A stretch of DNA of 51,941 nt, from positions 1-51,941 of the forward strand of contig JAQVLT010000008.1 in NCBI GenBank assembly GCA_028704015.1, written 5' to 3'. The notes beneath the pieces were generated by a model. It had not been told where the DNA came from, made no database searches, and saw only the letters and a list, made by a program, of their open reading frames with translations. The position numbers and the translations under genes were made by a program. The first letter of the stretch is position 1. Each line of letters starts with the position of its first letter. Below are positions 312 through 40,094 of this stretch, one piece after another. This DNA is from Patescibacteria group bacterium (GTDB lineage: Bacteria > Patescibacteriota > Patescibacteriia > Patescibacteriales > JAQVLT01).

Positions 312-1271
312 TTATTTTAAAATTATATTTACTATTTCTTTGTGCCCGCGCAAGAATTCTTCGCTAGTCATTTCACGTTTTCCTTCCGGTTGGAGCTTTG
401 TAATAATCAAAGCGTCTTGGCCGCATTGCACAGCAAGCTTATTTTCATACAAAAATATCTCCCCAGCTTTATATTTATTAATATCTATAGGTGTTTGCTC
501 AACTTTAATGATTTTTAATATGTTTGTAATTTGTAATTTGTAATTTGTAATTTTCGTGTATGCGCCTGGCCATGGATTCATCGCTCGCACAAATCTCTCA
601 ATTTCTATCGCGTTTTTTTGCCAATCAATCATTCCGTCTTCTTTTTTAAATTCTTTAATATAACTTGCTTGAGAATTATCTTGCGCTGTCGGTTTTATTT
701 TTCCAGAAATATAATCCTTAATAGTTGGTAACAAAAAATCAGCTCCTAATTTTGATAATTTTTCAAACAATGTTCCGGCAGTTTCAGTTGGAGCTAATTT
801 AATTTTAGTTTGAGATAAAATAGGCCCGGTGTCAAGACTGGCGTCCATTTTCATTATCGTGATTCCGGTTTCTTCGTCGCCATTAAGAATCGCCGCGGCA
901 ATACAAGCGGCACCGCGGTATTTGGGCAGAAGCGAGCCATGCACATTTATACAGCCATATTTTGGAATATCCAAAATTGCTTGCGGAATAATTTGTCCGT
1001 ATGCAATGGTAATAATTAAATCAGGTTTTAAATCTTTAATTTCCTTTACTATTTCTTTGATTTTTTCCGGTTGTATAATTTTTAATCCCAAATTTTTAGA
1101 TAGAACTTTAATCGGCGGGGGAGTAAGGATTTGTTTTCGCCCGACTTTTTTATCCGGCTGAGTGATAACGGCGACAATCTCAAAATCACTGTCCGCGGCC
1201 AGTTTTTCCAGAGCCGGAACGCCAAAATCTGGCGTGCCGATGAAAATTGTTTTTATGGGTTGATTAGACAT
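312..1271 (-). CDS. fmt: Methionyl-tRNA formyltransferase
   Basis: IFIGTPDFG N-terminus, VITQPDK, INVHGSLLPKYRGAA, MDASLDTGPIL, RAMNPWPGAY, LQPEGKREM. Confidence 0.97.
   Translation of the reverse strand: MSNQPIKTIFIGTPDFGVPALEKLAADSDFEIVAVITQPDKKVGRKQILTPPPIKVLSKNLGLKIIQPEKIKEIVKEIKDLKPDLIITIAYGQIIPQAILDIPKYGCINVHGSLLPKYRGAACIAAAILNGDEETGITIMKMDASLDTGPILSQTKIKLAPTETAGTLFEKLSKLGADFLLPTIKDYISGKIKPTAQDNSQASYIKEFKKEDGMIDWQKNAIEIERFVRAMNPWPGAYTKITNYKLQITNILKIIKVEQTPIDINKYKAGEIFLYENKLAVQCGQDALIITKLQPEGKREMTSEEFLRGHKEIVNIILK
524..551. repeat. (TTGTAAT)4 heptamer microsatellite inside fmt
   Basis: Four perfect copies, read on the minus strand as KITNYKLQITN. Confidence 0.9.
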
Positions 1272-11613: not shown

Positions 11614-12672
11614 ATGAATAATTTTTGGCAAAAATTAAAAGATAAAAAAAACTCCGCCAAGGGCGGACAGGCAATTTACGCATTGGCGCCGATGGCGGGA
11701 ATTACCGATTCGCCGTTTCGGCAGATTTGCAAAGAATTCGGTGCTGATGTTTTGTATTCCGAAATGGCGAGCGCGACCGCTTTGTTTTATGCCGGAAAAA
11801 ATCTGAAAAATAATCCGACACTGGAATTGATAAAATTTACCCCGAAAGAAAAACCATACGTAGTTCAGCTTTTTGGCAGCGAACCGAAGCACTTCGCACA
11901 TGCCGCAGATTTATTGTCAGGGCAGGGGAAGGCTATCGGACTAAAAGCTAAAAGCTATAACCTAAAAGCTCCTCAGGGTTTTGATATTAATTTCGGCTGT
12001 CCGGTGAAAAAAGTTATTAAACAAGGCGCAGGCGCGGCTCTGTTTCAGGACTTAAAAAAATCCCATGAAGTAATCAAGGCGGTAATTGACAATACAGACT
12101 TGCCGGTGTCCATAAAATTGAGGAGCGCCGCCGGCAAGGTTGATTGTTTGAAATTTTTGGATCGCATGAGTGATTTGAATATTAGTGCCGTAATGATTCA
12201 CGGCCGCAGTCTAACGCAAGGATTTTCCGGCCCGATTGATACAGAAATTATAAAAAAAGCCCGCAATTATTTTGGCGGAGTGATTTTGGCCAATGGCGGA
12301 GTTGGCCCCACCCCCAGCCCCTCTCTTAGCCAGGAGAGGGGAGCTAAAAATTATGTTGATTGGTTGTTAAAAGAATCTAATGCCGATGGTGTTGGCATTG
12401 GACAAGGGGCGCTGGGGAAACCGTGGATCTTTGAAGAAGTGAAAAGTAGAAAATTAAAAGTAAAAAGTGTTAAAGAAATTTTTGAAATTGCTTTAAGGCA
12501 CGCGAAGTTAATGGAGAAATGCAAAGGCAAGCAGGGAATTTTGGAGATGCGGAAACACCTATGTTGGTACACGCAGGGTTTGCCGGGTGCGAGGAAATTG
12601 AGAGAAGACTTGGTAAAAGTAAATACGTTAAAGGAAATTAAAAATATTTTGCAAATAAAAAAGACGAGATAA
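11614..12672 (+). CDS. dusB: tRNA-dihydrouridine synthase (DusB-like)
   Basis: LAPMAGITDSPFRQ, VQLFGSEP, DINFGCP, SIKLR, IHGRS, ANGG, MRKHLCWY. Confidence 0.92.
   Translation: MNNFWQKLKDKKNSAKGGQAIYALAPMAGITDSPFRQICKEFGADVLYSEMASATALFYAGKNLKNNPTLELIKFTPKEKPYVVQLFGSEPKHFAHAADLLSGQGKAIGLKAKSYNLKAPQGFDINFGCPVKKVIKQGAGAALFQDLKKSHEVIKAVIDNTDLPVSIKLRSAAGKVDCLKFLDRMSDLNISAVMIHGRSLTQGFSGPIDTEIIKKARNYFGGVILANGGVGPTPSPSLSQERGAKNYVDWLLKESNADGVGIGQGALGKPWIFEEVKSRKLKVKSVKEIFEIALRHAKLMEKCKGKQGILEMRKHLCWYTQGLPGARKLREDLVKVNTLKEIKNILQIKKTR
12306..12341. repeat. CCCCTCTC..GAGAGGGG REP-like hairpin in frame inside dusB
   Basis: 8-bp stem at 12318-12341 with a C-rich leader, read as PTPSPSLSQERG. Confidence 0.7.
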
Positions 12673-22898: not shown

Positions 22899-23076
22899 GC
22901 CATCTCGAGCCCGCAGGCGAGACCTGCCTGCCGGCAGACAGGGATCCCTTGAACGTGAGAAGCACAACGTCTAAGGGATTCCTCACCCGAAGCGTCGGGA
23001 TCGGAATGACAACGGACGTGGAAAAAGCGCAACATTTAAGAGATTCCTTATCTGAAGCGTCGGGAACCGAAATGAC
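22899..23076. repeat. Composite REP-like cluster (..AATGAC-ended arms, nested CCTGCC palindrome, GAAGCGTCGGGA duplications)
   Basis: Left arm gccatctcgag..gatccc. Two right arms end in cggaatgac (23010) and gaaatgac (23076). cctgcctgccggcagacagg lies at 22923-22942. Confidence 0.7.
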
Positions 23077-29876: not shown

Positions 29877-30186
29877 AGAAGAAAATTTGCCAATGCAACC
29901 TGAACAGATTTTAAGGCAGGCGGGCTATGGATATATTGAAGATCCAGTGATGGAGAAAGAAAGTTTCGTCAGGCATTTTGGTCGCGAACGCTATCCGCGA
30001 TTTCATATGTATATTAATGAAAAAAATGGCCATATTATTTTTGATTTGCATTTGGATCAAAAAAAAGCCAGCTACGCCGGTTTGCATATGCACAGCGCTG
30101 AGTATGGCGGAGAATTGGTGGAGGCGGAAATAAAAAGAATAAAAATTTTAATCAGCGATTTATATCGCAAAACGCATATCGCGTAA
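29860..30186 (+). CDS. Conserved hypothetical protein
   Basis: ATG at 29860 overlaps the gtrA end. Motifs LRQAGY, RYPRFHMY, HLDQKKASY. Confidence 0.75.
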   Translation: MKIIVKEENLPMQPEQILRQAGYGYIEDPVMEKESFVRHFGRERYPRFHMYINEKNGHIIFDLHLDQKKASYAGLHMHSAEYGGELVEAEIKRIKILISDLYRKTHIA

Positions 30187-30215
30187 CACATAACACATAA
30201 CACATAACACATAAC
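30181..30215. repeat. GCGTAAC(ACATAAC)4 heptamer array
   Basis: Four perfect copies; degenerate complementary units lie at 31189-31253. Confidence 0.85.
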
Positions 30216-30229
30216 AAGATATTGGTTAT

Positions 30230-31180
30230 ATGAAATTTAATAAAATAATTTTATACGATCTGAAATCCAAACCCCTGGAAGATGAGTTTATAAATAAATT
30301 AAAAGAATATGCCGTTAGAGTTGAGATAATTTTTGCTGAAAAAGAATATGCTCAATCTTTAAAACCGGAAGATGCAAAAGGCGCGGATGCAATTATCACT
30401 AGGTTGCTTGATTTTTACGCGGATAAAATTTTCACTCGAGGAACACTTAAATTTATCACAACCATGCATACGGATTTTTCAAATTTTAAGCTTGCCTTGC
30501 TAAGACAAAACGGAATTACTTTAAGCAACGTTCCTGGATATTCAACGGAAGCGGTTGCAGAACTAACGGTTTCAGCACTTTTGAATATTTCCCGGCGGAC
30601 TCACGATGCTATGAATTTTGTTAAACAAGGAAATTGGGGTTTTGAAAAATTTATGGGTTGGGAGCTAAAAGGAAAAACATTGGGAATTATCGGTTTGGGG
30701 AAAATTGGCGGGAGGGTAGCAGAAATTTGCCAGTGCTTCGGCATGAATATTGTTTATTTTTCAAAAGTCAGAAAATCGGATTCAGAGCAGAAAGGAATAA
30801 AATTTGCCGAACTCGACGTATTACTAAGAGAAAGCGATGCCATAAGCTTGCATTGTTCTTTAAATAATGAAACGGAACAAATATTAAATAAGGCCAGGCT
30901 GCAATTAATGAAACCGGGCGCGGTTTTACTTGACCCAGGAAGATCGGAGCTGGTAGATTTGGAAGCGGTATTTGAACTTTGCAAAGAAAAAAAGATATAT
31001 GCCTGGTTTGAAGCGATTGAAGATAAAAATATCAGAGACAAATTTGGAGTTTTGGATAATGTATATCTGACGCCGCATTTCGGCTGGATGACCGAGGAAG
31101 CGCAGTGGAGATTGCGAGAAATCACTCTTTCAAATATTAAAGCATATTTGGATGATAGTCCTGTAAATAGAATAATTTAA
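30230..31180 (+). CDS. D-isomer-specific 2-hydroxyacid dehydrogenase family protein
   Basis: NVPGYSTEAVAE, LKGKTLGIIGLGKIG, ISLHC, LTPHFGW. Confidence 0.9.
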   Translation: MKFNKIILYDLKSKPLEDEFINKLKEYAVRVEIIFAEKEYAQSLKPEDAKGADAIITRLLDFYADKIFTRGTLKFITTMHTDFSNFKLALLRQNGITLSNVPGYSTEAVAELTVSALLNISRRTHDAMNFVKQGNWGFEKFMGWELKGKTLGIIGLGKIGGRVAEICQCFGMNIVYFSKVRKSDSEQKGIKFAELDVLLRESDAISLHCSLNNETEQILNKARLQLMKPGAVLLDPGRSELVDLEAVFELCKEKKIYAWFEAIEDKNIRDKFGVLDNVYLTPHFGWMTEEAQWRLREITLSNIKAYLDDSPVNRII

Positions 31181-31258
31181 TTTAAAAATGTTACGCGTTA
31201 TCCGCCGGGGGCGGACAAGTGTGTTATGTGCTGTGAGTTATGTTTTGTGTGACAAATT

Positions 31259-33127
31259 ATGAATTCTTCCGACGAAATAAAATCTAAATTGGATATTGTA
31301 GATATAATTCGCGATTATATCCCGCTTAAGGCCGCGGGCGTAAATTTTCGCGCTAATTGTCCATTTCATCACGAGAAATCTCCCTCCTTTATCGTTTCGC
31401 CGGAAAAACAGATTTGGCATTGCTTCGGTTGCGGCAAGGGCGGCGATGTAATTTCTTTTGTTATGGATATTGAAGGATTGAGCTTCATTGAAGCTTTGCG
31501 TATGCTCGCACCTAAGGCTGGAATTACTTTAGTGCGTCAGAATCCGGAATTAACCTCCAAACGCAATCGGCTTTTGGATATTTTAGAAATTTCCGTAAAA
31601 TATTATCATAAAATTTTATTATCAAACGCGCAGGCGGGAGCCGCCAAAGAATATTTGGCGAAGCGCGGTTTGAGCGATAACACAATTGATGAATGGCAAA
31701 TCGGCTATAGCCCGGATTCGTGGGATGACTTGATTATTTTGTTGAAGAGCAGGGGGTTTACCGATAATGAAATATTTTTGGCGGGAATGTCAGTAAAAAA
31801 AGAAGGCATGGGTAGATTCTATAATCGTTTTCGTGATCGCATTATGTTCCCAATTTTTGATATCAACGGCGCGCCGGTAGCATTTTCCGCGCGCGTCAAT
31901 CCGGCAAAAGAAGCTACGGAAAAAATGGGCAAGTATATCAACAGTCCGCAGACAATGGTTTATGATAAGAGTAAAATTTTATTCGGCCTAGACAAAGCGA
32001 AGATGGCAATCAAGGCAAATAATTTAGCAATAATTGTTGAAGGACAAATGGACGCGATTACCGCACATCAAAACGGTTTTAAAAATATTATCGCTTCTTC
32101 GGGTACCGCCTTGACCGGTGAGCAGATAAATCTGATTAAGCGCTATACGGATAATATCGCGCTTGCTTTTGACGCTGACACGGCCGGTGAATTAGCAGCG
32201 GATCGGGGAATACGCGAAGCTATGGCCAAAGAAATGAATATTAAAGTAATTGAAGTACCGCTCGGCAAAGATCCGGATGAATGCATTAAATCAAATCCGA
32301 CCGAATGGAAAAAAGCGGTTACAGCGGCGAAGCCGATGATGCAATATTATTTTGATAAAATTTTTGCCAATCTTGATCTAAGCACTGTTGATAATCGGCG
32401 TGAGACCGCCAAAAAACTCTTGCCGACAATTTTTAAATTAGGCAATGCGATTGAAAAAGATTATTGGTTGAAAAAATTGAGTGCCAAAATAGATGTGGAG
32501 GAAAATATTTTACGCGAGACTTTGCAAAAAATGAAAGCAACCAAACAAGAAGCGGAATATAAAAAAGCACCAGATAGGGCCAGTCGAGAGATTGTCCAAA
32601 CTAGGCAGGAGATGCTTTCCGAACTATTGATTGCCTTGATTTTAAAATTTCCAATTTTGTTTAGCTATGTTCTTGACCATTTGATTCCGGAGCAGATCGC
32701 CGGAGATGGAAATCAGAGGCTTTACAAGGAATTAATAATTTATTATAATAATATTACTGTCAGCTTGTTTGAAGGAGAGGCGATGGATTTTAATTATCAA
32801 GAATTGAGCAATTGGCTAAAAGAAAAGGAAATAGGACAAATTAGCGTAATAAATTCAGATGAGCTTCGTCCTCAATCAGAATTGGTAAATTTGTTGGATC
32901 GGTTAATGCTTTTGGCTGACCGTGATTTTTATAATTTTGATAACGAACAAGCAAAAAATGAAATTATAAGAATAATCGTTTTCTTGAAAAAACAATATTT
33001 AACCAACCGCATGAAAGAATTGGAAAAGCTTATTAGTGAAGCGGAAAAAAATAATGACAAAGCAAATATTGTCTCTCTAATGGAAGAATTAAAATTAATT
33101 TTTGAAGAAATCAAAGAACTTAGTTAA
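31259..33127 (+). CDS. dnaG: DNA primase
   Basis: [15 protein letters not shown] zinc finger, [30 protein letters not shown]. Confidence 0.97.
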
Positions 33128-33146
33128 TTTTTATTATATAATTTTC

Positions 33147-34481
33147 ATGCCTAAAAAAAAGCAAAAAAATAAAAAGGCAAGAATAATTAAAAAGATTAAA
33201 GAAAAAATCTTTAAAAAGCCGACTCATAAGCCGGCTAAAGCTGTGAAAAAAACAGCTAAATTTAGAATTGAAAACAAAAAGAAAAAAGGAATAAAAAAAT
33301 TACCACAAAAAAAAGAAATTATTGAAGAAGCAATCAGGCCATCAGAAGAAAAAAGAAGGGCTTTAATTGAGAAAGGACGTTCGCGCGGTTTTGTCACCGA
33401 AACTGAATTATTATATTTATTTCCAGAAGTGGAAGAGTATATTTTTGATTATGAAGTTTTTTTGGAAGATTTACAGAAAAAGGGCATTAGAATTATTGAA
33501 GATACCGGACAGATTTTAAATATCAACTCAAGCTTAACGGTTAAAGCGAAGGAAGAAAAGCCGAAAGGCAAAGGAAAAAACAGGGCCAAAGAACAAAGCG
33601 AGGCTGATGAAGCGCAGCTTATAGAGGATATCAAAAATATTGATTTGTCCAAATTAAGTTCGGATTCCATCCAAATGTATCTGAAAGAAATCGGCAGGGT
33701 TCCTCTGCTAACCGGCGAAGAAGAAGTTGAATTAGCCAAGAGAAAAGAAAGAGGGGACAAGGAAGCTGAGAAAAAAATAATTGAAGCAAATTTGCGCCTC
33801 GTGGTTTCCATTGCCAAAAAATTCACCGGGGTTAAGGGTTTAAGTTTATTAGATCTGATTCAAGAAGGCAATATTGGTCTATTTCGTGCCGTGGAAAAGT
33901 TTGAATATCGGAAAGGTTATAAATTTTCTACTTATGCGACTTGGTGGATAAGGCAGGCAATTACTCGAGCTTTGGCTGATCAATCTCGTACCATCCGTAT
34001 TCCTGTTCATATGGTAGAGACAATCAATAAATTTACCCAGGTGCAGAGGCAGTTAATTCAGGATTTGGGACGTGAGCCGTTGCCGGAAGAAATAGCCGCT
34101 GAAATGAGCGAAGAAATTGATAAAGTTCGCCATATTATCAAAATTTCCCAGGATACAATTTCTCTGGAAACTACGGTCGGCGAAGACGAGGAAGACTCAA
34201 CGTTGGAGGATTTTATTGAAGATGTCCGTAGTGTAACGCCGGATAGATCAGCCGCCTTGCAATTGCTCAAGGATTACGTGCGCGAAATCGTGGCAAATCT
34301 TTCGCCGCGCGAGCAAAAAATATTAGAAATGCGTTTTGGCTTAGTTGACGGCGTGGCTCACACCCTGGAAGAAGTTGGCCAGGAGTTTGATGTTACCCGC
34401 GAACGTATTCGCCAGATTGAAGCCAAGGCGTTAGAGCGCATTCAAAAGCACGAAGGAATAAAGAAACTTAGAGACTTTTAA
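33147..34481 (+). CDS. rpoD: Primary RNA polymerase sigma factor
   Basis: [59 protein letters not shown]. Confidence 0.97.
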
Positions 34482-34594
34482 TAATTTTAGATTTAAGATT
34501 TTAGATTTAAGATTTGAATTGACAAAATTTTTATATTTGGATAATATATTTTTAGTGCCCCAAAGGCATTTTTAATTTAAGATTTTTGATTTTT

Positions 34595-34614
34595 CCTGCC
34601 TGCCGGCAGGCAGG
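34595..34614. repeat. Perfect 20-bp palindrome CCTGCCTGCCGGCAGGCAGG
   Basis: Self-complementary; related copies at 11147, 22923 and 39441. Confidence 0.9.
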
Positions 34615-34631
34615 GATTTAAGATTTTGTTC

Positions 34632-34982
34632 ATGAATAAGGAGGAACTAAAAGAGCGCACCAAGAAGTTCTCTTTGCGTATTATTAGATTGGTTAATTCA
34701 TTGCCAAATAATAAAGCTGGATACGCGATTGGCAATCAATTGATAAGGTCGGGTACTTCCGTGGGCGCTAATTATAGAGCTGTTTGCAGAGCAAAGTCAA
34801 AAGCGGATTTTATAGCCAAGCTGGGAGTGGTAATTGAAGAAGCTGATGAAACTGTTTATTGGTTGGAATTAATCATTGAGGGCGGTATATTGTCAAAAGA
34901 GTTAGTCATGCCTCTGCTACAAGAGGCAAATGAACTAACGGCAATTATGGTTGCGTCCAGAAAAACCATTTCAAATTCATAA
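34632..34982 (+). CDS. Four-helix-bundle protein (23S rRNA IVS-protein family)
   Basis: QLIRSGTSVGANYRA..FIAKLGVVIEEADETVYWLEL..EANELTAI signature. Confidence 0.92.
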   Translation: MNKEELKERTKKFSLRIIRLVNSLPNNKAGYAIGNQLIRSGTSVGANYRAVCRAKSKADFIAKLGVVIEEADETVYWLELIIEGGILSKELVMPLLQEANELTAIMVASRKTISNS

Positions 34983-35072
34983 AAATACAAAAAAATAATA
35001 AATAAAAATCTAAAATCAAAAATTATAAAAATAAAATCCTAAATCTTAAATCGTAAATCTAAAATTATTTAT

Positions 35073-35144
35073 TCCCGGGTAGCGCAGCGGTAGCGCAGTT
35101 CGCTGTTAACGAATTGGTCGTCGGTTCGAATCCGACCCCGGGAG
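35073..35144 (+). tRNA. tRNA-Asn (anticodon GTT), CCA not encoded
   Basis: Acceptor TCCCGGG/CCCGGGA, anticodon arm GTTCG-CT GTT AA-CGAAT, T-arm GTCGG-TTCGAAT-CCGAC. Confidence 0.95.
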
Positions 35145-35151
35145 CCGCACT

Positions 35152-35181
35152 CAAAAACACTTGTATTTACAAGTGTTTTTG
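35152..35181 (+). terminator. Terminator after tRNA-Asn
   Basis: caaaaacacttgta-tt-tacaagtgtttttg hairpin. Confidence 0.75.
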
Positions 35182-35209
35182 TATTTTGATGATTTATAGA
35201 AAATCGTAC

Positions 35210-35238
35210 TTGACAACAATGTTAGAATGATATAACAT
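35210..35238 (+). promoter_or_regulatory. Promoter with overlapping palindromic operator candidate
   Basis: TTGACA, 17 nt, TAACAT; ATGTTA-N8-TAACAT inverted repeat at 35219-35238. Confidence 0.5.
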
Positions 35239-35269
35239 ATAAATAGTTAGAAATAATTAACAAAAAATT

Positions 35270-35656
35270 ATGACAAAAAAACAGTATCAATATTGCCGTT
35301 TGGCAATTATCATTATATTGAGCGCGTCTATTAGTATTTCGATTACAATAAATAATTATTATCTTCCAATTATATTTACGTTAAGCGCGATGGCTGGTAT
35401 GTATTATTGTCGAAAACAACTTAAGACTAAAGCAGTGCTGGCAGACGAAAGAGACTATCAAGTTGCGGGAAATGCCGCTCGCTATTCAATCTTTATTTAT
35501 GGTTGGATGGGCGCTATCGGAACATTTGTTTTGATGGCAATCTCAGAAAAACAAGGTGTACTATATGCAGTAAGCCAGTATTTAGCTTTTAGCGTTTGTT
35601 TTCTTATGCTTCTTAATGCTTTTTTGTTTAAATATTTAAGCAAGAGGGAGAAATAA
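35270..35656 (+). CDS. Membrane protein, DUF2178-like
   Basis: Four TM helices with central [13 protein letters not shown] motif; paired with an HTH gene. Confidence 0.75.
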
Positions 35657-39953: not shown

Positions 39954-40094
39954 TGAGAATTATTTTATATTTTTTGGTTCTTGTCATATCTTGTAATTTT
40001 TGTTATAGTTTAATCTACGTTTTTTGGTTCTAATAAATAGAACTGCATAATAACAAAATTTGTAATTTTTAATTCTAAATTTGTAATTTAAAAT

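What the first reader, a model, noticed from the sequence alone, without database searches (positions are those of the whole stretch)
34482..35067. IVS-like hairpin element carrying a four-helix-bundle gene between rpoD and tRNA-Asn
Seen: a 27-bp inverted repeat (25/27) starts at the base after the rpoD stop and ends 5 nt before tRNA-Asn. Inner arms also match (ATTTTTGATTTT with AAAATCAAAAAT). The loop holds a hairpin, a TTGACA, the CCTGCC palindrome and the gene. Known: this protein family was first found in 23S rRNA intervening sequences excised by RNase III and is structurally related to DGR Avd. Inference: a self-contained stem-loop element that stays harmless by folding out of, or being cut from, transcripts. 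Its spread mechanism is unknown.
Basis: partly seen in the sequence, partly recalled or inferred. Interest (0 to 1): 0.7.

Follow-up and report, generated by a model that had tools for sequence, protein, structure and literature searches.

The report
Four-helix-bundle gene cassette before tRNA-Asn

Summary

The 586-nt stretch is compound, not one self-contained element:
- The TTGACA promoter and the small hairpin are tRNA-Asn's own. Relatives without any insert have them too.
- The 20-nt GC palindrome is a separate later insertion. It is absent, exactly, from an orthologue.
- The real unit is a PF05635 four-helix-bundle gene between inverted arrays of 7-nt units with a GATT core. A second array pair is nested outside it.

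Fourteen of the 15 family genes in this 1.08-Mb genome have such arms, against 4.6% of other ORFs.

Across 83 relatives of this gene, from several phyla, the upstream arm keeps GATT at exact 7-nt phase. It has five cores in 45 of 62 cases. Other subfamilies use other cores. Solved homologues have five chains per crystal entry.

The site is empty, gene-less or filled in different relatives.

Most likely this is an IVS-type cassette transcribed with rpoD and tRNA-Asn and cut out at its stem by RNase III, with arrays bound by its own pentamer. Cutting and binding are inferred, because no RNA data exist.

This scan has seen the design many times. I found it in print only for rRNA.

The parts
33102..34481 (+). 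rpoD (context); stop TAA at 34479-34481, 2 nt before the outer-left array
   Evidence: Sigma70 r1.1, r1.2, r2, r3, r4
34484..34515 (+). Outer-left array: 5 units (ATTTTAG ATTTAAG ATTTTAG ATTTAAG ATTT), GATT core. It lies upstream of the tRNA promoter.
   Evidence: 29 of 32 complementary to 35034-35065
34519..34547 (+). Sigma-70-type promoter TTGACA-17-TAATAT. It is the native tRNA-Asn promoter, not cassette cargo.
   Evidence: the same promoter stands before tRNA-Asn in L025, L024, L028, L034, L036, L040, L046 and L212
34554..34570 (+). Small GC hairpin (AGTGCCCCAAAGGCATT) at the start of the tRNA-Asn leader. It is conserved in relatives with and without the cassette.
34568..34594 (+). Inner-left array, first part (ATTTTTA ATTTAAG ATTTTTG ATTTTT)
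34595..34614 (.). 20-nt palindrome CCTGCCTGCCGGCAGGCAGG. It is a separate mobile unit inserted into the array directly 5' of a GATT core.
   Evidence: exact 20-nt gap in L046, no duplication; 55 copies, many inside heptamer arrays
34615..34629 (+). Inner-left array, second part (G ATTTAAG ATTTTGT), ending 2 nt before the start codon
34632..34982 (+). Four-helix-bundle protein gene, 116 aa (PF05635 / TIGR02436)
   Evidence: (2rld, 1.3e-21)
35007..35066 (+). Right arrays: 9 AATC-type cores in one 7-nt phase. About 5 inner units (35007-35034) and 5 outer units (35035-35066).
   Evidence: L046 has only the outer five
35073..35146 (+). tRNA-Asn(gtt), 5 nt after the pairing (which ends at 35067)
35152..35181 (+). 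Intrinsic terminator-like hairpin plus T-run that ends the rpoD/tRNA-Asn transcription unit
   Evidence: (I15)

Best explanation
Window 34482-35067 holds an IVS-type four-helix-bundle cassette lodged in a stable-RNA transcription unit.

Core unit. The core unit is a PF05635 gene flanked by inverted arrays of about five 7-nt units with a GATT core. It sits between the tRNA-Asn promoter/leader hairpin and the tRNA itself. A further five-unit array lies before the promoter, and five extra units on the right form a second, outer hairpin that begins right after the rpoD stop.

Proposed mechanism. The gene has no evident promoter of its own between its arms. It is transcribed from the tRNA-Asn promoter and by read-through from rpoD. 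In the RNA the arms pair into long stems that bring the host sequences back together. RNase III cuts these stems, as shown for the homologous Coxiella 23S rRNA insert. The insert therefore does not harm rpoD mRNA or tRNA-Asn maturation.

Role of the protein. The encoded protein is a ring of five four-helix bundles in its solved homologues. It most likely binds the five-fold arrays, one GATT core per subunit, on a single strand (RNA more likely than DNA). Binding would compete with stem formation, and so would control the protein's own expression and the fate of the many gene-less arrays of the same type.

Spread. Over evolutionary time the cassette, including its arms, is gained, lost and copied to new intergenic sites. 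It carries no enzyme of its own. Spread probably uses the arrays as portable homology or relies on a host function.

Shown: the anatomy, the family-wide arms, the subfamily-specific core, the five-fold count, filled, gene-less and empty sites, and copies at different sites.

Inferred: RNase III cutting, protein-array binding, autoregulation and the route of spread.
For: Anatomy:
- Searches give the arms, promoter, hairpin, gene and fold.

Host origin of promoter and hairpin:
- The same promoter and hairpin stand before tRNA-Asn in relatives with no insert (L025, L024) and with other inserts.

Orthologous filled sites:
- L046 (82% protein identity), L027 and L212 carry the gene in the same leader.

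Arms are a family trait in this genome:
- 14 of 15 PF05635 genes have a flank inverted-repeat score of at least 15, against 45 of 978 other ORFs.
- 14 of 15 are co-oriented with the gene just upstream, at gaps of 10-99 nt.

Core and count:
- Among 83 loci of this subfamily, 62 have GATT cores at exact 7-nt phase upstream. 45 of those 62 have exactly five.
- Downstream, 43 have AATC cores and 29 of those have five. Controls give about 0.
- The ATT of the core carries about 1.8-2 bits, the spacers about 0.
- GATT chains occur in 46 of 79 loci of this subfamily, against 3 of 108 loci of two other subfamilies, which use TAGCTT-, YAG- or GTAA-type units (Fisher 1e-18).

Pentamer:
- 2rld (1.3e-21) has five identical chains in one entry.
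- The best fold matches are 2rld, 2gsc and Avd 4dwl.
- Lin 2006 describes 'five four-helix bundles' (title cited in PMC10053308).

Genome-wide quantisation:
- There are 363 period-7 chains, against 30-86 for other periods. The mode is 5, with a sharp drop at 6.

RNase III:
- The gene is present.
- Cutting within a heptamer-bearing 28-bp stem is shown for the Coxiella IVS (PMC4990558).

Mobility:
- The cassettes at C11:53791-54298 and C15:66481-66977 are 80% identical over 508 nt, arms included. The C11 copy sits inside a broken cassette of another type.
- The same arm type with a 70%-identical gene lies between infA and rpmJ in Falkowbacteria.
- Protein identity of 57-72% reaches Planctomycetota, Acidobacteriota, Verrucomicrobiota and others.

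Gene and arrays across genomes:
- All 5 of 400 sampled Patescibacteria genomes with a close homologue have at least 4 GATTx5 matches. About 50 of the other 395 do.
Against: - There is no RNA evidence at all for this organism. Transcription, stem cutting and translation are all unshown.
- No binding data exist for any family member, and the pentamer is known only from homologues. My own model was of low confidence (pLDDT 67.7).
- Unit-by-unit complementarity of spacers between the arms is only weakly above permuted order (0.726 against 0.67, p = 0.035, n = 21). The case that selection acts on one specific stem register is therefore thin.
- Arrays outnumber the genes about 24 to 1, and many are solo. 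They also bracket ordinary genes.
- Large GATT arrays occur in genomes without a close homologue of this gene. The arrays may not depend on this protein.
- In the second subfamily the count is less sharp (modes at 4-5), and some arrays have period 8.
- No target duplication, no enzyme and no movement between near-identical strains was seen. Reads gave no clean empty allele.
Confidence: 0.6

Rival explanations
1. Host punctuation system rather than a selfish cassette. In this reading, five-unit heptamer arrays are general signals for operon processing or insulation. They pair across a cistron, or stand alone, and guide RNA cleavage or stability. The four-helix-bundle proteins are their dedicated trans-acting regulators. 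The gene in the window is simply one regulator gene that is itself bracketed by its own signal.
For: - There are 363 arrays against 15 genes, and 244 of the arrays lie outside ORFs.
- There are 29 GATT-type arrays, mostly solo, against one GATT-subfamily gene.
- An outer hairpin enclosing the tRNA-Asn promoter is present without any gene in three other families of the order (L028, L040, L044).
- In the window, a 316-aa dehydrogenase gene is bracketed by (TAACACA)x5 and its complement.
- Rehm 2015 found GGGAATC (= GATTCCC) arrays placed in an orientation-specific way next to ORFs in Xanthomonas, mostly transcribed (PMC4692102).
Against: - Homologues at 57-72% identity are scattered patchily across phyla.
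- Only 5 of 400 sampled Patescibacteria have this subfamily.
- The site is empty, gene-less or filled in different relatives.
- One cassette sits inside another, and decayed copies exist (L037; ATG to ATA in L027). These patterns fit an accessory, mobile gene better than a conserved regulator.
Confidence: 0.25
2. DNA-level element. The inverted arrays would act as single-stranded DNA hairpins or cruciforms that a trans-acting nuclease or recombinase recognises, in the manner of REP/RAYT, IS200/IS605 ends or integron attC sites. The four-helix-bundle protein would be an accessory DNA-binding factor. RNA processing would be incidental.
For: - Whole cassettes, arms included, are copied to new sites, and one is nested in another.
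- Gene-less arm pairs outnumber filled ones, as MITEs or REPINs do.
- An orthologous array changed the same base in three consecutive units (GATTT here, GCTTT in L046). This needs a DNA-level homogenising process.
- A second mobile palindrome targets the arrays at a fixed position.
- The genome also holds GxxExxY-type nuclease genes with arms of their own and, according to earlier notes, an integron-like platform.
Against: - The cassette has no recombinase or nuclease, and the junctions show no target duplication.
- 14 of 15 genes are co-oriented with the upstream gene and packed stop-to-start. This is expected for an RNA-level constraint, not for a DNA transposon.
- The only experimental data on a homologous element show RNA excision (PMC4990558).
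Confidence: 0.12
3. Degenerate remnant of a diversity-generating retroelement. The gene would be an orphan Avd, and the repeats would be leftovers of template and variable repeats.
For: PF05635 is the family that resembles Avd (PMC10053308). Avd 4dwl is among the fold matches. One reverse transcriptase exists in the genome.
Against: - The only RT hit is on another contig (C6) and none of the 15 genes is on that contig.
- The repeats are 7-nt tandem arrays in inverted pairs, not a TR/VR pair of about 100 nt.
- The protein is 35% identical to the non-DGR BT_0352 (2rld) and 9% identical to Avd.
Confidence: 0.02

Closest known systems
ORF-bearing intervening sequences of 23S rRNA (Coxiella burnetii helix-45 IVS with S23p; Leptospira; also reported in CPR rRNA genes)
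   Same: - Same protein family in the loop.
- Long terminal stem built partly of tandem heptamers (GACAGAT in Coxiella).
- Sits inside a stable-RNA transcription unit, with no promoter of its own.
- RNase III excision is shown for Coxiella (PMC4990558).
- PF05635 ORFs are reported in CPR 16S and 23S inserts (bioRxiv 10.1101/2024.02.27.582315).
   Different: - Not in rRNA. It lies in the 5' leader of tRNA-Asn, directly after rpoD.
- The other 14 copies in this genome lie next to protein-coding genes, one of them just upstream of another tRNA.
- The arms are exactly five-fold arrays with a subfamily-specific core.
- The hairpin is double and nested.
- Excision is untested here.
Over-represented intergenic heptamer repeats (Xanthomonas GGGAATC, Nostoc GGGGATT; Rehm et al. 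2015, PMC4692102)
   Same: - Period 7, with the same AATC/GATT core.
- Intergenic, often in convergent pairs (70-75 per genome).
- Narrow preferred copy number.
- Mostly transcribed.
   Different: - That paper reads them as G-quadruplex formers and names no protein partner.
- The arrays here are AT-rich (GATTTAA) and cannot form G4.
- Here the arrays bracket a gene whose subfamily tracks the core.
DGR accessory protein Avd (Bordetella phage BPP-1, PDB 4dwl)
   Same: Four-helix-bundle fold and a homopentameric ring. The partner is a nucleic acid.
   Different: No reverse transcriptase and no template or variable repeats at the locus. Sequence identity is 9%.
REP/REPIN elements with RAYT transposases
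   Same: One gene flanked by its own inverted repeats, plus many gene-less copies of the repeats dispersed between genes.
   Different: - The gene is a small helical bundle with no known catalytic motif, not a Y1 transposase.
- The repeats are tandem arrays of a 7-nt unit rather than a single palindrome.
TRAP (trp RNA-binding attenuation protein), cited from my own knowledge
   Same: A ring-shaped homo-oligomer, and a target made of as many short, evenly spaced core repeats as there are subunits, with free spacers.
   Different: The fold is unrelated (11-mer beta-sandwich ring). Binding by PF05635 proteins is only inferred.

Membership tests
PF05635 / TIGR02436 four-helix-bundle ('23S rRNA IVS protein') family | Profile match above the curated cut-off | tested here: met
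   PF05635: 64 bits against a cut-off of 33.8. TIGR02436: 93.1 bits against 24.
PF05635 / TIGR02436 four-helix-bundle ('23S rRNA IVS protein') family | Helical-bundle fold like BT_0352 and Xcc0516 | tested here: met
   Sequence match to 2rld at 1.3e-21 over 111 residues. The all-helical model's best fold hits are 2rld, then 2gsc, then 4dwl. The model is of low confidence (pLDDT 67.7).
PF05635 / TIGR02436 four-helix-bundle ('23S rRNA IVS protein') family | Homopentameric ring | not testable with these tools
   Known only from homologues: five identical chains in 2rld, chains A-E of 2gsc among the fold hits, and Lin 2006's 'five four-helix bundles'.
ORF-bearing 23S rRNA intervening sequence (IVS) | Inserted in a helix of the 23S rRNA gene | tested here: not met
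   It lies between rpoD and tRNA-Asn. Rfam finds only the tRNA in 34300-35350.
ORF-bearing 23S rRNA intervening sequence (IVS) | Complementary termini forming a long stem that encloses a PF05635 ORF | tested here: met
   29 of 32 for the outer arms.
ORF-bearing 23S rRNA intervening sequence (IVS) | Excised from the precursor by RNase III without ligation | not testable with these tools
   No RNA runs hold the sequence. The RNase III gene is present at C16:6398-6793.
Diversity-generating retroelement (Avd role) | Adjacent reverse transcriptase and a TR/VR repeat pair | tested here: not met
   The only RVT_1 hit is on contig C6. The repeats here are 7-nt arrays.
IS / MITE-type transposable element | Transposase (own or in trans) and target-site duplication at the ends of the terminal inverted repeats | tested here: not met
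   The single ORF is the 116-aa bundle. No duplication is visible at the junctions of the window, the C11/C15 pair or the orthologue comparison.
REP/RAYT-like system | Y1 (HUH) transposase gene flanked by its REP sequences | tested here: not met
   The flanked gene is PF05635, not a Y1 transposase. The likeness is limited to 'one gene plus many gene-less repeat copies'.
Ring-protein / phased-repeat RNA recognition (TRAP-like mode of action) | Number of evenly spaced conserved cores equals the number of subunits, with unconstrained spacers | tested here: met
   Five GATT cores at 7-nt phase in 45 of 62 upstream arms. Cores carry about 2 bits and spacers about 0. Homologues are pentamers.
Ring-protein / phased-repeat RNA recognition (TRAP-like mode of action) | Direct, sequence-specific binding of the protein to the array | not testable with these tools
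   Needs purified protein.

The most novel reading that the evidence does not exclude
PF05635 four-helix-bundle pentamers would be sequence-specific readers of five-fold heptamer arrays, with one 4-nt core per subunit and each protein subfamily using its own core.

In this reading, the hundreds of unexplained heptamer arrays between bacterial genes are binding sites of a set of orthogonal ring proteins that decide whether neighbouring cistrons are cut apart. These arrays number 363 in this 1.08-Mb genome and include Xanthomonas GGGAATC and Nostoc GGGGATT.

The protein genes themselves would travel between array-bearing hairpins in mRNA, tRNA leaders and rRNA. The classical 23S rRNA IVS would be just the copies that landed in rRNA.
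Probability: 0.35. Interest if true: 0.85.

Novelty: new variant of a known kind. Interest (0 to 1): 0.62.

Why it matters
The function of the '23S rRNA IVS protein' / Avd-like family is unknown. It is a very large family: more than 8,000 close hits for this one member. The excess of 7-nt tandem repeats between bacterial genes has been noted since 2007 without explanation.

This locus joins the two. It also shows the cassette in a tRNA leader, a third kind of host RNA besides rRNA and mRNA.

Three findings turn a vague 'stem-loop element' into a directly testable binding hypothesis, one ring subunit per repeat:
- the five-fold count of units per arm;
- the subfamily-specific core;
- the series of empty, gene-less and filled states at one orthologous site.

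If the hypothesis holds, it would define a new class of RNA (or ssDNA) recognition modules and explain how operons in very small genomes tolerate these inserts. As a single instance it is one more example of a design that this scan has met in many genomes.

Tried and rejected
- RNA evidence. The look-up of sequencing runs gave only three landfill and two groundwater DNA metagenomes for the window. For a Kuenenia relative (L100) it gave only traces, at 0.05-0.07 of words. No processing test was possible.
- Empty allele in the same population. Read laying on the DNA runs gave the organism's own contigs without differences. It also gave short-sided joints (21-31 nt) that probably come from other organisms or other hairpins. 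I do not count these as an empty allele.
- Matching dispersed array types to the arms of each paralogue. With one mismatch or fewer over all rotations, AT-rich units match 60-95 arrays each, so the test has no resolving power. Only GC-containing types are informative (AGCTTT: 33-36 other arrays; CAGAC: 2-4).
- Unit-register complementarity between arms: weak (p = 0.035).
- Orientation of solo GATT arrays relative to transcription: 6 against 3, too few to say anything.
- Gene-versus-array presence across 400 genomes. The result is positive (5 of 5 against about 50 of 395). However, the pattern also catches perfect repeats whose real core may differ, and big arrays exist without the gene.
- Single-sequence AlphaFold model: low confidence. 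I used it only to rank folds.
- An error I corrected: loci returned by the genome search for minus-strand matches are not re-oriented. My first pass read the wrong side. I redid it.
- Chance, low-complexity and terminator readings: rejected by the control ORFs, by the period controls, and because the outer right arm has no T-run after it.

Full report
**Observation**

The stretch is as described.
- rpoD ends with TAA at 34479-34481. tRNA-Asn(gtt) starts at 35073.
- 34482-34508 pairs with 35041-35067 at 25 of 27 positions.
- The inner 12-mers at 34583-94 and 35012-23 are perfect complements.
- Between them lie TTGACA-17-TAATAT (34519-47), a small hairpin (34554-70), the palindrome CCTGCCTGCCGGCAGGCAGG (34595-34614) and a 116-codon gene (34632-34982).
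- The gene matches PF05635 (1.7e-17) and TIGR02436 (1.1e-26).
- The arms are tandem 7-nt units. There are five on the outer left (34484-34515). About six are on the inner left, split by the palindrome. Nine are in one phase on the right (AATC-type cores from 35007 to 35066).
- As RNA, 34470-35150 folds into an outer and an inner stem with the tRNA cloverleaf apart (-187.5 kcal/mol, z = -3.85).

**The genome**

The window is contig C3 of a 1.08-Mb, 37.8% GC assembly of 27 contigs. Earlier notes file it under Patescibacteria (CPR). The runs that hold the sequence are landfill metagenomes.

The genome has 15 PF05635 genes.
- In 14 of 15 the 160-nt flanks contain an inverted repeat scoring at least 15, against 45 of 978 other ORFs. 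The window copy scores 29.5, above the control 99th percentile of 20.6.
- Each copy uses its own unit, for example AGCTTTA, CAGACAA, CACATAG, CAATTGA or GATTTAA.
- 14 of 15 genes point the same way as the gene just upstream, at gaps of 10-99 nt that are nearly all arm. They therefore depend on host transcription.

**What belongs to the element**

I compared rpoD-to-tRNA-Asn in relatives of the same order and in metagenome contigs.

| Locus | State of the site |
|---|---|
| L025, L024 | Promoter and small hairpin before tRNA-Asn; no arrays |
| L028, L040, L044 | Gene-less outer hairpin that encloses the promoter (GATT/GAAT-type or AATT-type units) |
| L034 | Gene-less inner hairpin after the promoter |
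| L046 (82% protein identity), L027, L212 | The gene in the same leader |
| L037 | Decayed cassette of another subfamily right after the rpoD stop |

The promoter and the small hairpin are therefore the tRNA's own. The cassette proper is inner-left array, gene and right array. The window adds an outer pair.

Aligning the window with L046 shows three things.
- The palindrome is an exact 20-nt insertion without duplication. It has 55 copies in the genome, many inside heptamer arrays directly 5' of a GATT core.
- The window's right array has 43 extra bases, a second set of units.
- The outer-left array differs by the same base in three consecutive units (GATTT here, GCTTT there). This is a concerted change.

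**Core and count**

Close relatives of this protein (57-82% identity) occur in Planctomycetota, Verrucomicrobiota, Acidobacteriota, Bacteroidota, Proteobacteria and Patescibacteria.
- In 62 of 83 loci the upstream flank has GATT cores at exact 7-nt spacing, and 45 of these have exactly five.
- Downstream, 43 loci have AATC cores, and 29 of these have five.
- The same scan with the cores on the wrong side, with other 4-mers, or with periods 6, 8 and 9 finds almost nothing.
- The ATT of the core carries about 2 bits. The three spacer bases carry none and drift with GC content (GATTGCC in GC-rich phyla, GATTTAA here).

Two other subfamilies were sampled through paralogues C18:12901 and C24:4687.
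- They use TAGCTT-, YAG- and GTAA-type units.
- Some of their arrays have period 8, and the modes are at 4-5 units.
- GATT chains occur in 46 of 79 loci of the first set against 3 of 108 in these two (Fisher 1e-18).

A stem alone would tolerate compensatory change. A host factor common to all phyla would impose one core on all subfamilies. The simplest reader of the core is therefore the co-inherited protein.

Solved homologues have five chains per crystal entry (2rld, 1.3e-21; 2gsc and Avd 4dwl among the fold hits). Lin 2006 describes 'five four-helix bundles'. Five cores per arm match five subunits. This is an inference; no binding has been measured.

**Arrays without the gene**

- Type-agnostic scans find 363 period-7 chains in the genome, against 30-86 for periods 5, 6 and 8-11 and 36 after local shuffling. 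The mode is five, with a sharp drop at six.
- 244 of the chains lie outside ORFs of 80 aa or more.
- There are 29 arrays of the GATT type, mostly solo, for a single GATT-subfamily gene.
- Arrays also bracket other genes: three GxxExxY-type paralogues and, in the window, a 316-aa dehydrogenase gene (30230-31180). The latter lies between (TAACACA)x5 and its complement, which ends 6 nt before the dnaG start.
- In a sample of 400 Patescibacteria genomes only five have a close homologue of the window's gene, and all five have at least 4 GATTx5 matches. About 50 of the other 395 do, by my count from the table. Some genomes without the gene also have very many such arrays.

The arrays are thus a wider phenomenon than the gene. 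This keeps a 'host punctuation system' reading alive.

**Mobility**

- C11:53791-54298 and C15:66481-66977 are 80% identical over 508 nt. Homology ends at the outer ends of the arms. The C11 copy replaces the middle of a C1-like cassette, whose two ends remain.
- A 70%-identical gene with the same TAGATTT arms lies between infA and rpmJ in Falkowbacteria.
- I saw no enzyme, no target duplication and no polymorphism within the source population.

**Mechanism**

I take the cassette to be transcribed from the tRNA-Asn promoter and by read-through from rpoD. There is no terminator between them; the only one follows the tRNA at 35152-81. The arms would form stems that RNase III cuts. The gene for RNase III is present, and the cut is shown for the Coxiella homologue, whose 28-bp stem also holds tandem heptamers (PMC4990558). 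RNase P then trims the tRNA in any case, which makes a tRNA leader a safe harbour. The pentamer would bind one arm as a single strand and compete with stem formation.

Only the anatomy and the comparative patterns are shown. Cutting, binding and regulation are inferred.

**Comparison and novelty**

- It works like an ORF-bearing 23S rRNA IVS, but it fails that family's defining location.
- It shares its core and period with the Xanthomonas and Nostoc heptamer repeats, which were read as G-quadruplexes with no protein partner (PMC4692102). The AT-rich arrays here cannot form G4.
- It is not a DGR. The only RT is on another contig.
- Searches of the held literature for the family names together with heptamer terms found nothing beyond the Coxiella paper.
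- Earlier agents of this scan reached the same pentamer-reads-five-units idea in other genomes. My result repeats theirs with the same kind of evidence and is not independent support.
- Specific to this window are the tRNA-leader position, the nested double hairpin, the series of site states across families, the concerted unit switch, and the exact filled/empty pair for the palindrome.

Noticed in passing
window 30184-30216 and 31219-31252: A 316-aa 2-hydroxyacid-dehydrogenase-like gene (30230-31180) is bracketed by (TAACACA)x~5 and by the complementary array GTGTTATGTGCTGTGAGTTATGTTTTGTGTGA. The first array starts in the stop codon of the upstream ORF. The second ends 6 nt before the dnaG start. 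So inverted heptamer arrays frame ordinary genes too.
   Followed up: partly
window 34595-34614 (also 22923-22942); genome-wide: The 20-nt palindrome CCTGCCTGCCGGCAGGCAGG has 55 copies (up to 3 mismatches) in the genome. Many are inserted inside heptamer arrays at a fixed place: directly 5' of GATT, or between TA and GCTTT. The orthologue L046 has the exact empty site with no duplication.
   Followed up: partly
genome contig C11:53700-54460 (locus L014): One cassette sits inside another. A C15-like four-helix-bundle cassette (arms included) replaces the middle of a C1-like four-helix-bundle gene. The first ~30 nt and last ~70 nt of that gene remain, together with its own arms and palindrome.
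   Followed up: partly
window 34484-34515 against L046:~425-460: The orthologous outer-left arrays differ by the same substitution in three consecutive units (AGATTT here, AGCTTT in L046). This is concerted evolution, or a switch of unit type.
   Followed up: no
loci L028, L044, L212 (upstream of tRNA-Asn): Broken 5' pieces of tRNA-Asn (TCCCGGGTAGCGCC... or TCCCGCCC...) carry GC-rich palindromes and are repeated in tandem before the intact tRNA gene.
   Followed up: no
genome C6:27096-27491, C23:15956-16351, C16:20755-21150: Three paralogous 131-aa proteins (...KELSYKI..GLL..., ...GILVNF...; they look like the GxxExxY type, not checked with Pfam here). Each is flanked by its own inverted arms of phased repeats.
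   Followed up: no
genome C19:1-134 and C20:37920-38046: Two very long heptamer arrays stand out: (TACGATT)x19 at a contig end and (TAATTGT)x18. The usual length is 4-6 units.
   Followed up: no
genome C6:58298-58702: Five GATT/AATC arrays alternate in orientation and form two gene-less hairpins in tandem, about 195 nt apart.
   Followed up: no
locus L027 (G042), gene start: The orthologous cassette gene has ATA where the window has the ATG start. The copy is either decaying or uses a non-canonical start. A perfect AAGGAGG lies 6 nt inside the ORF in the window, L046 and L027.
   Followed up: no
window 523-553, 2021-2055, 11941-11970, 12437-12468, 40057-40089: Further heptamer arrays of 4-5 units occur in the window (TTTGTAA, AAAATTT, CTAAAAG, AAGTAAA, AATTTGT). 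None has a four-helix-bundle gene nearby.
   Followed up: no
genome C6:79564-80010: This is the only reverse-transcriptase (RVT_1) match in the genome, in a 485-aa frame. No PF05635 gene is on that contig, and the RT type was not determined.
   Followed up: no
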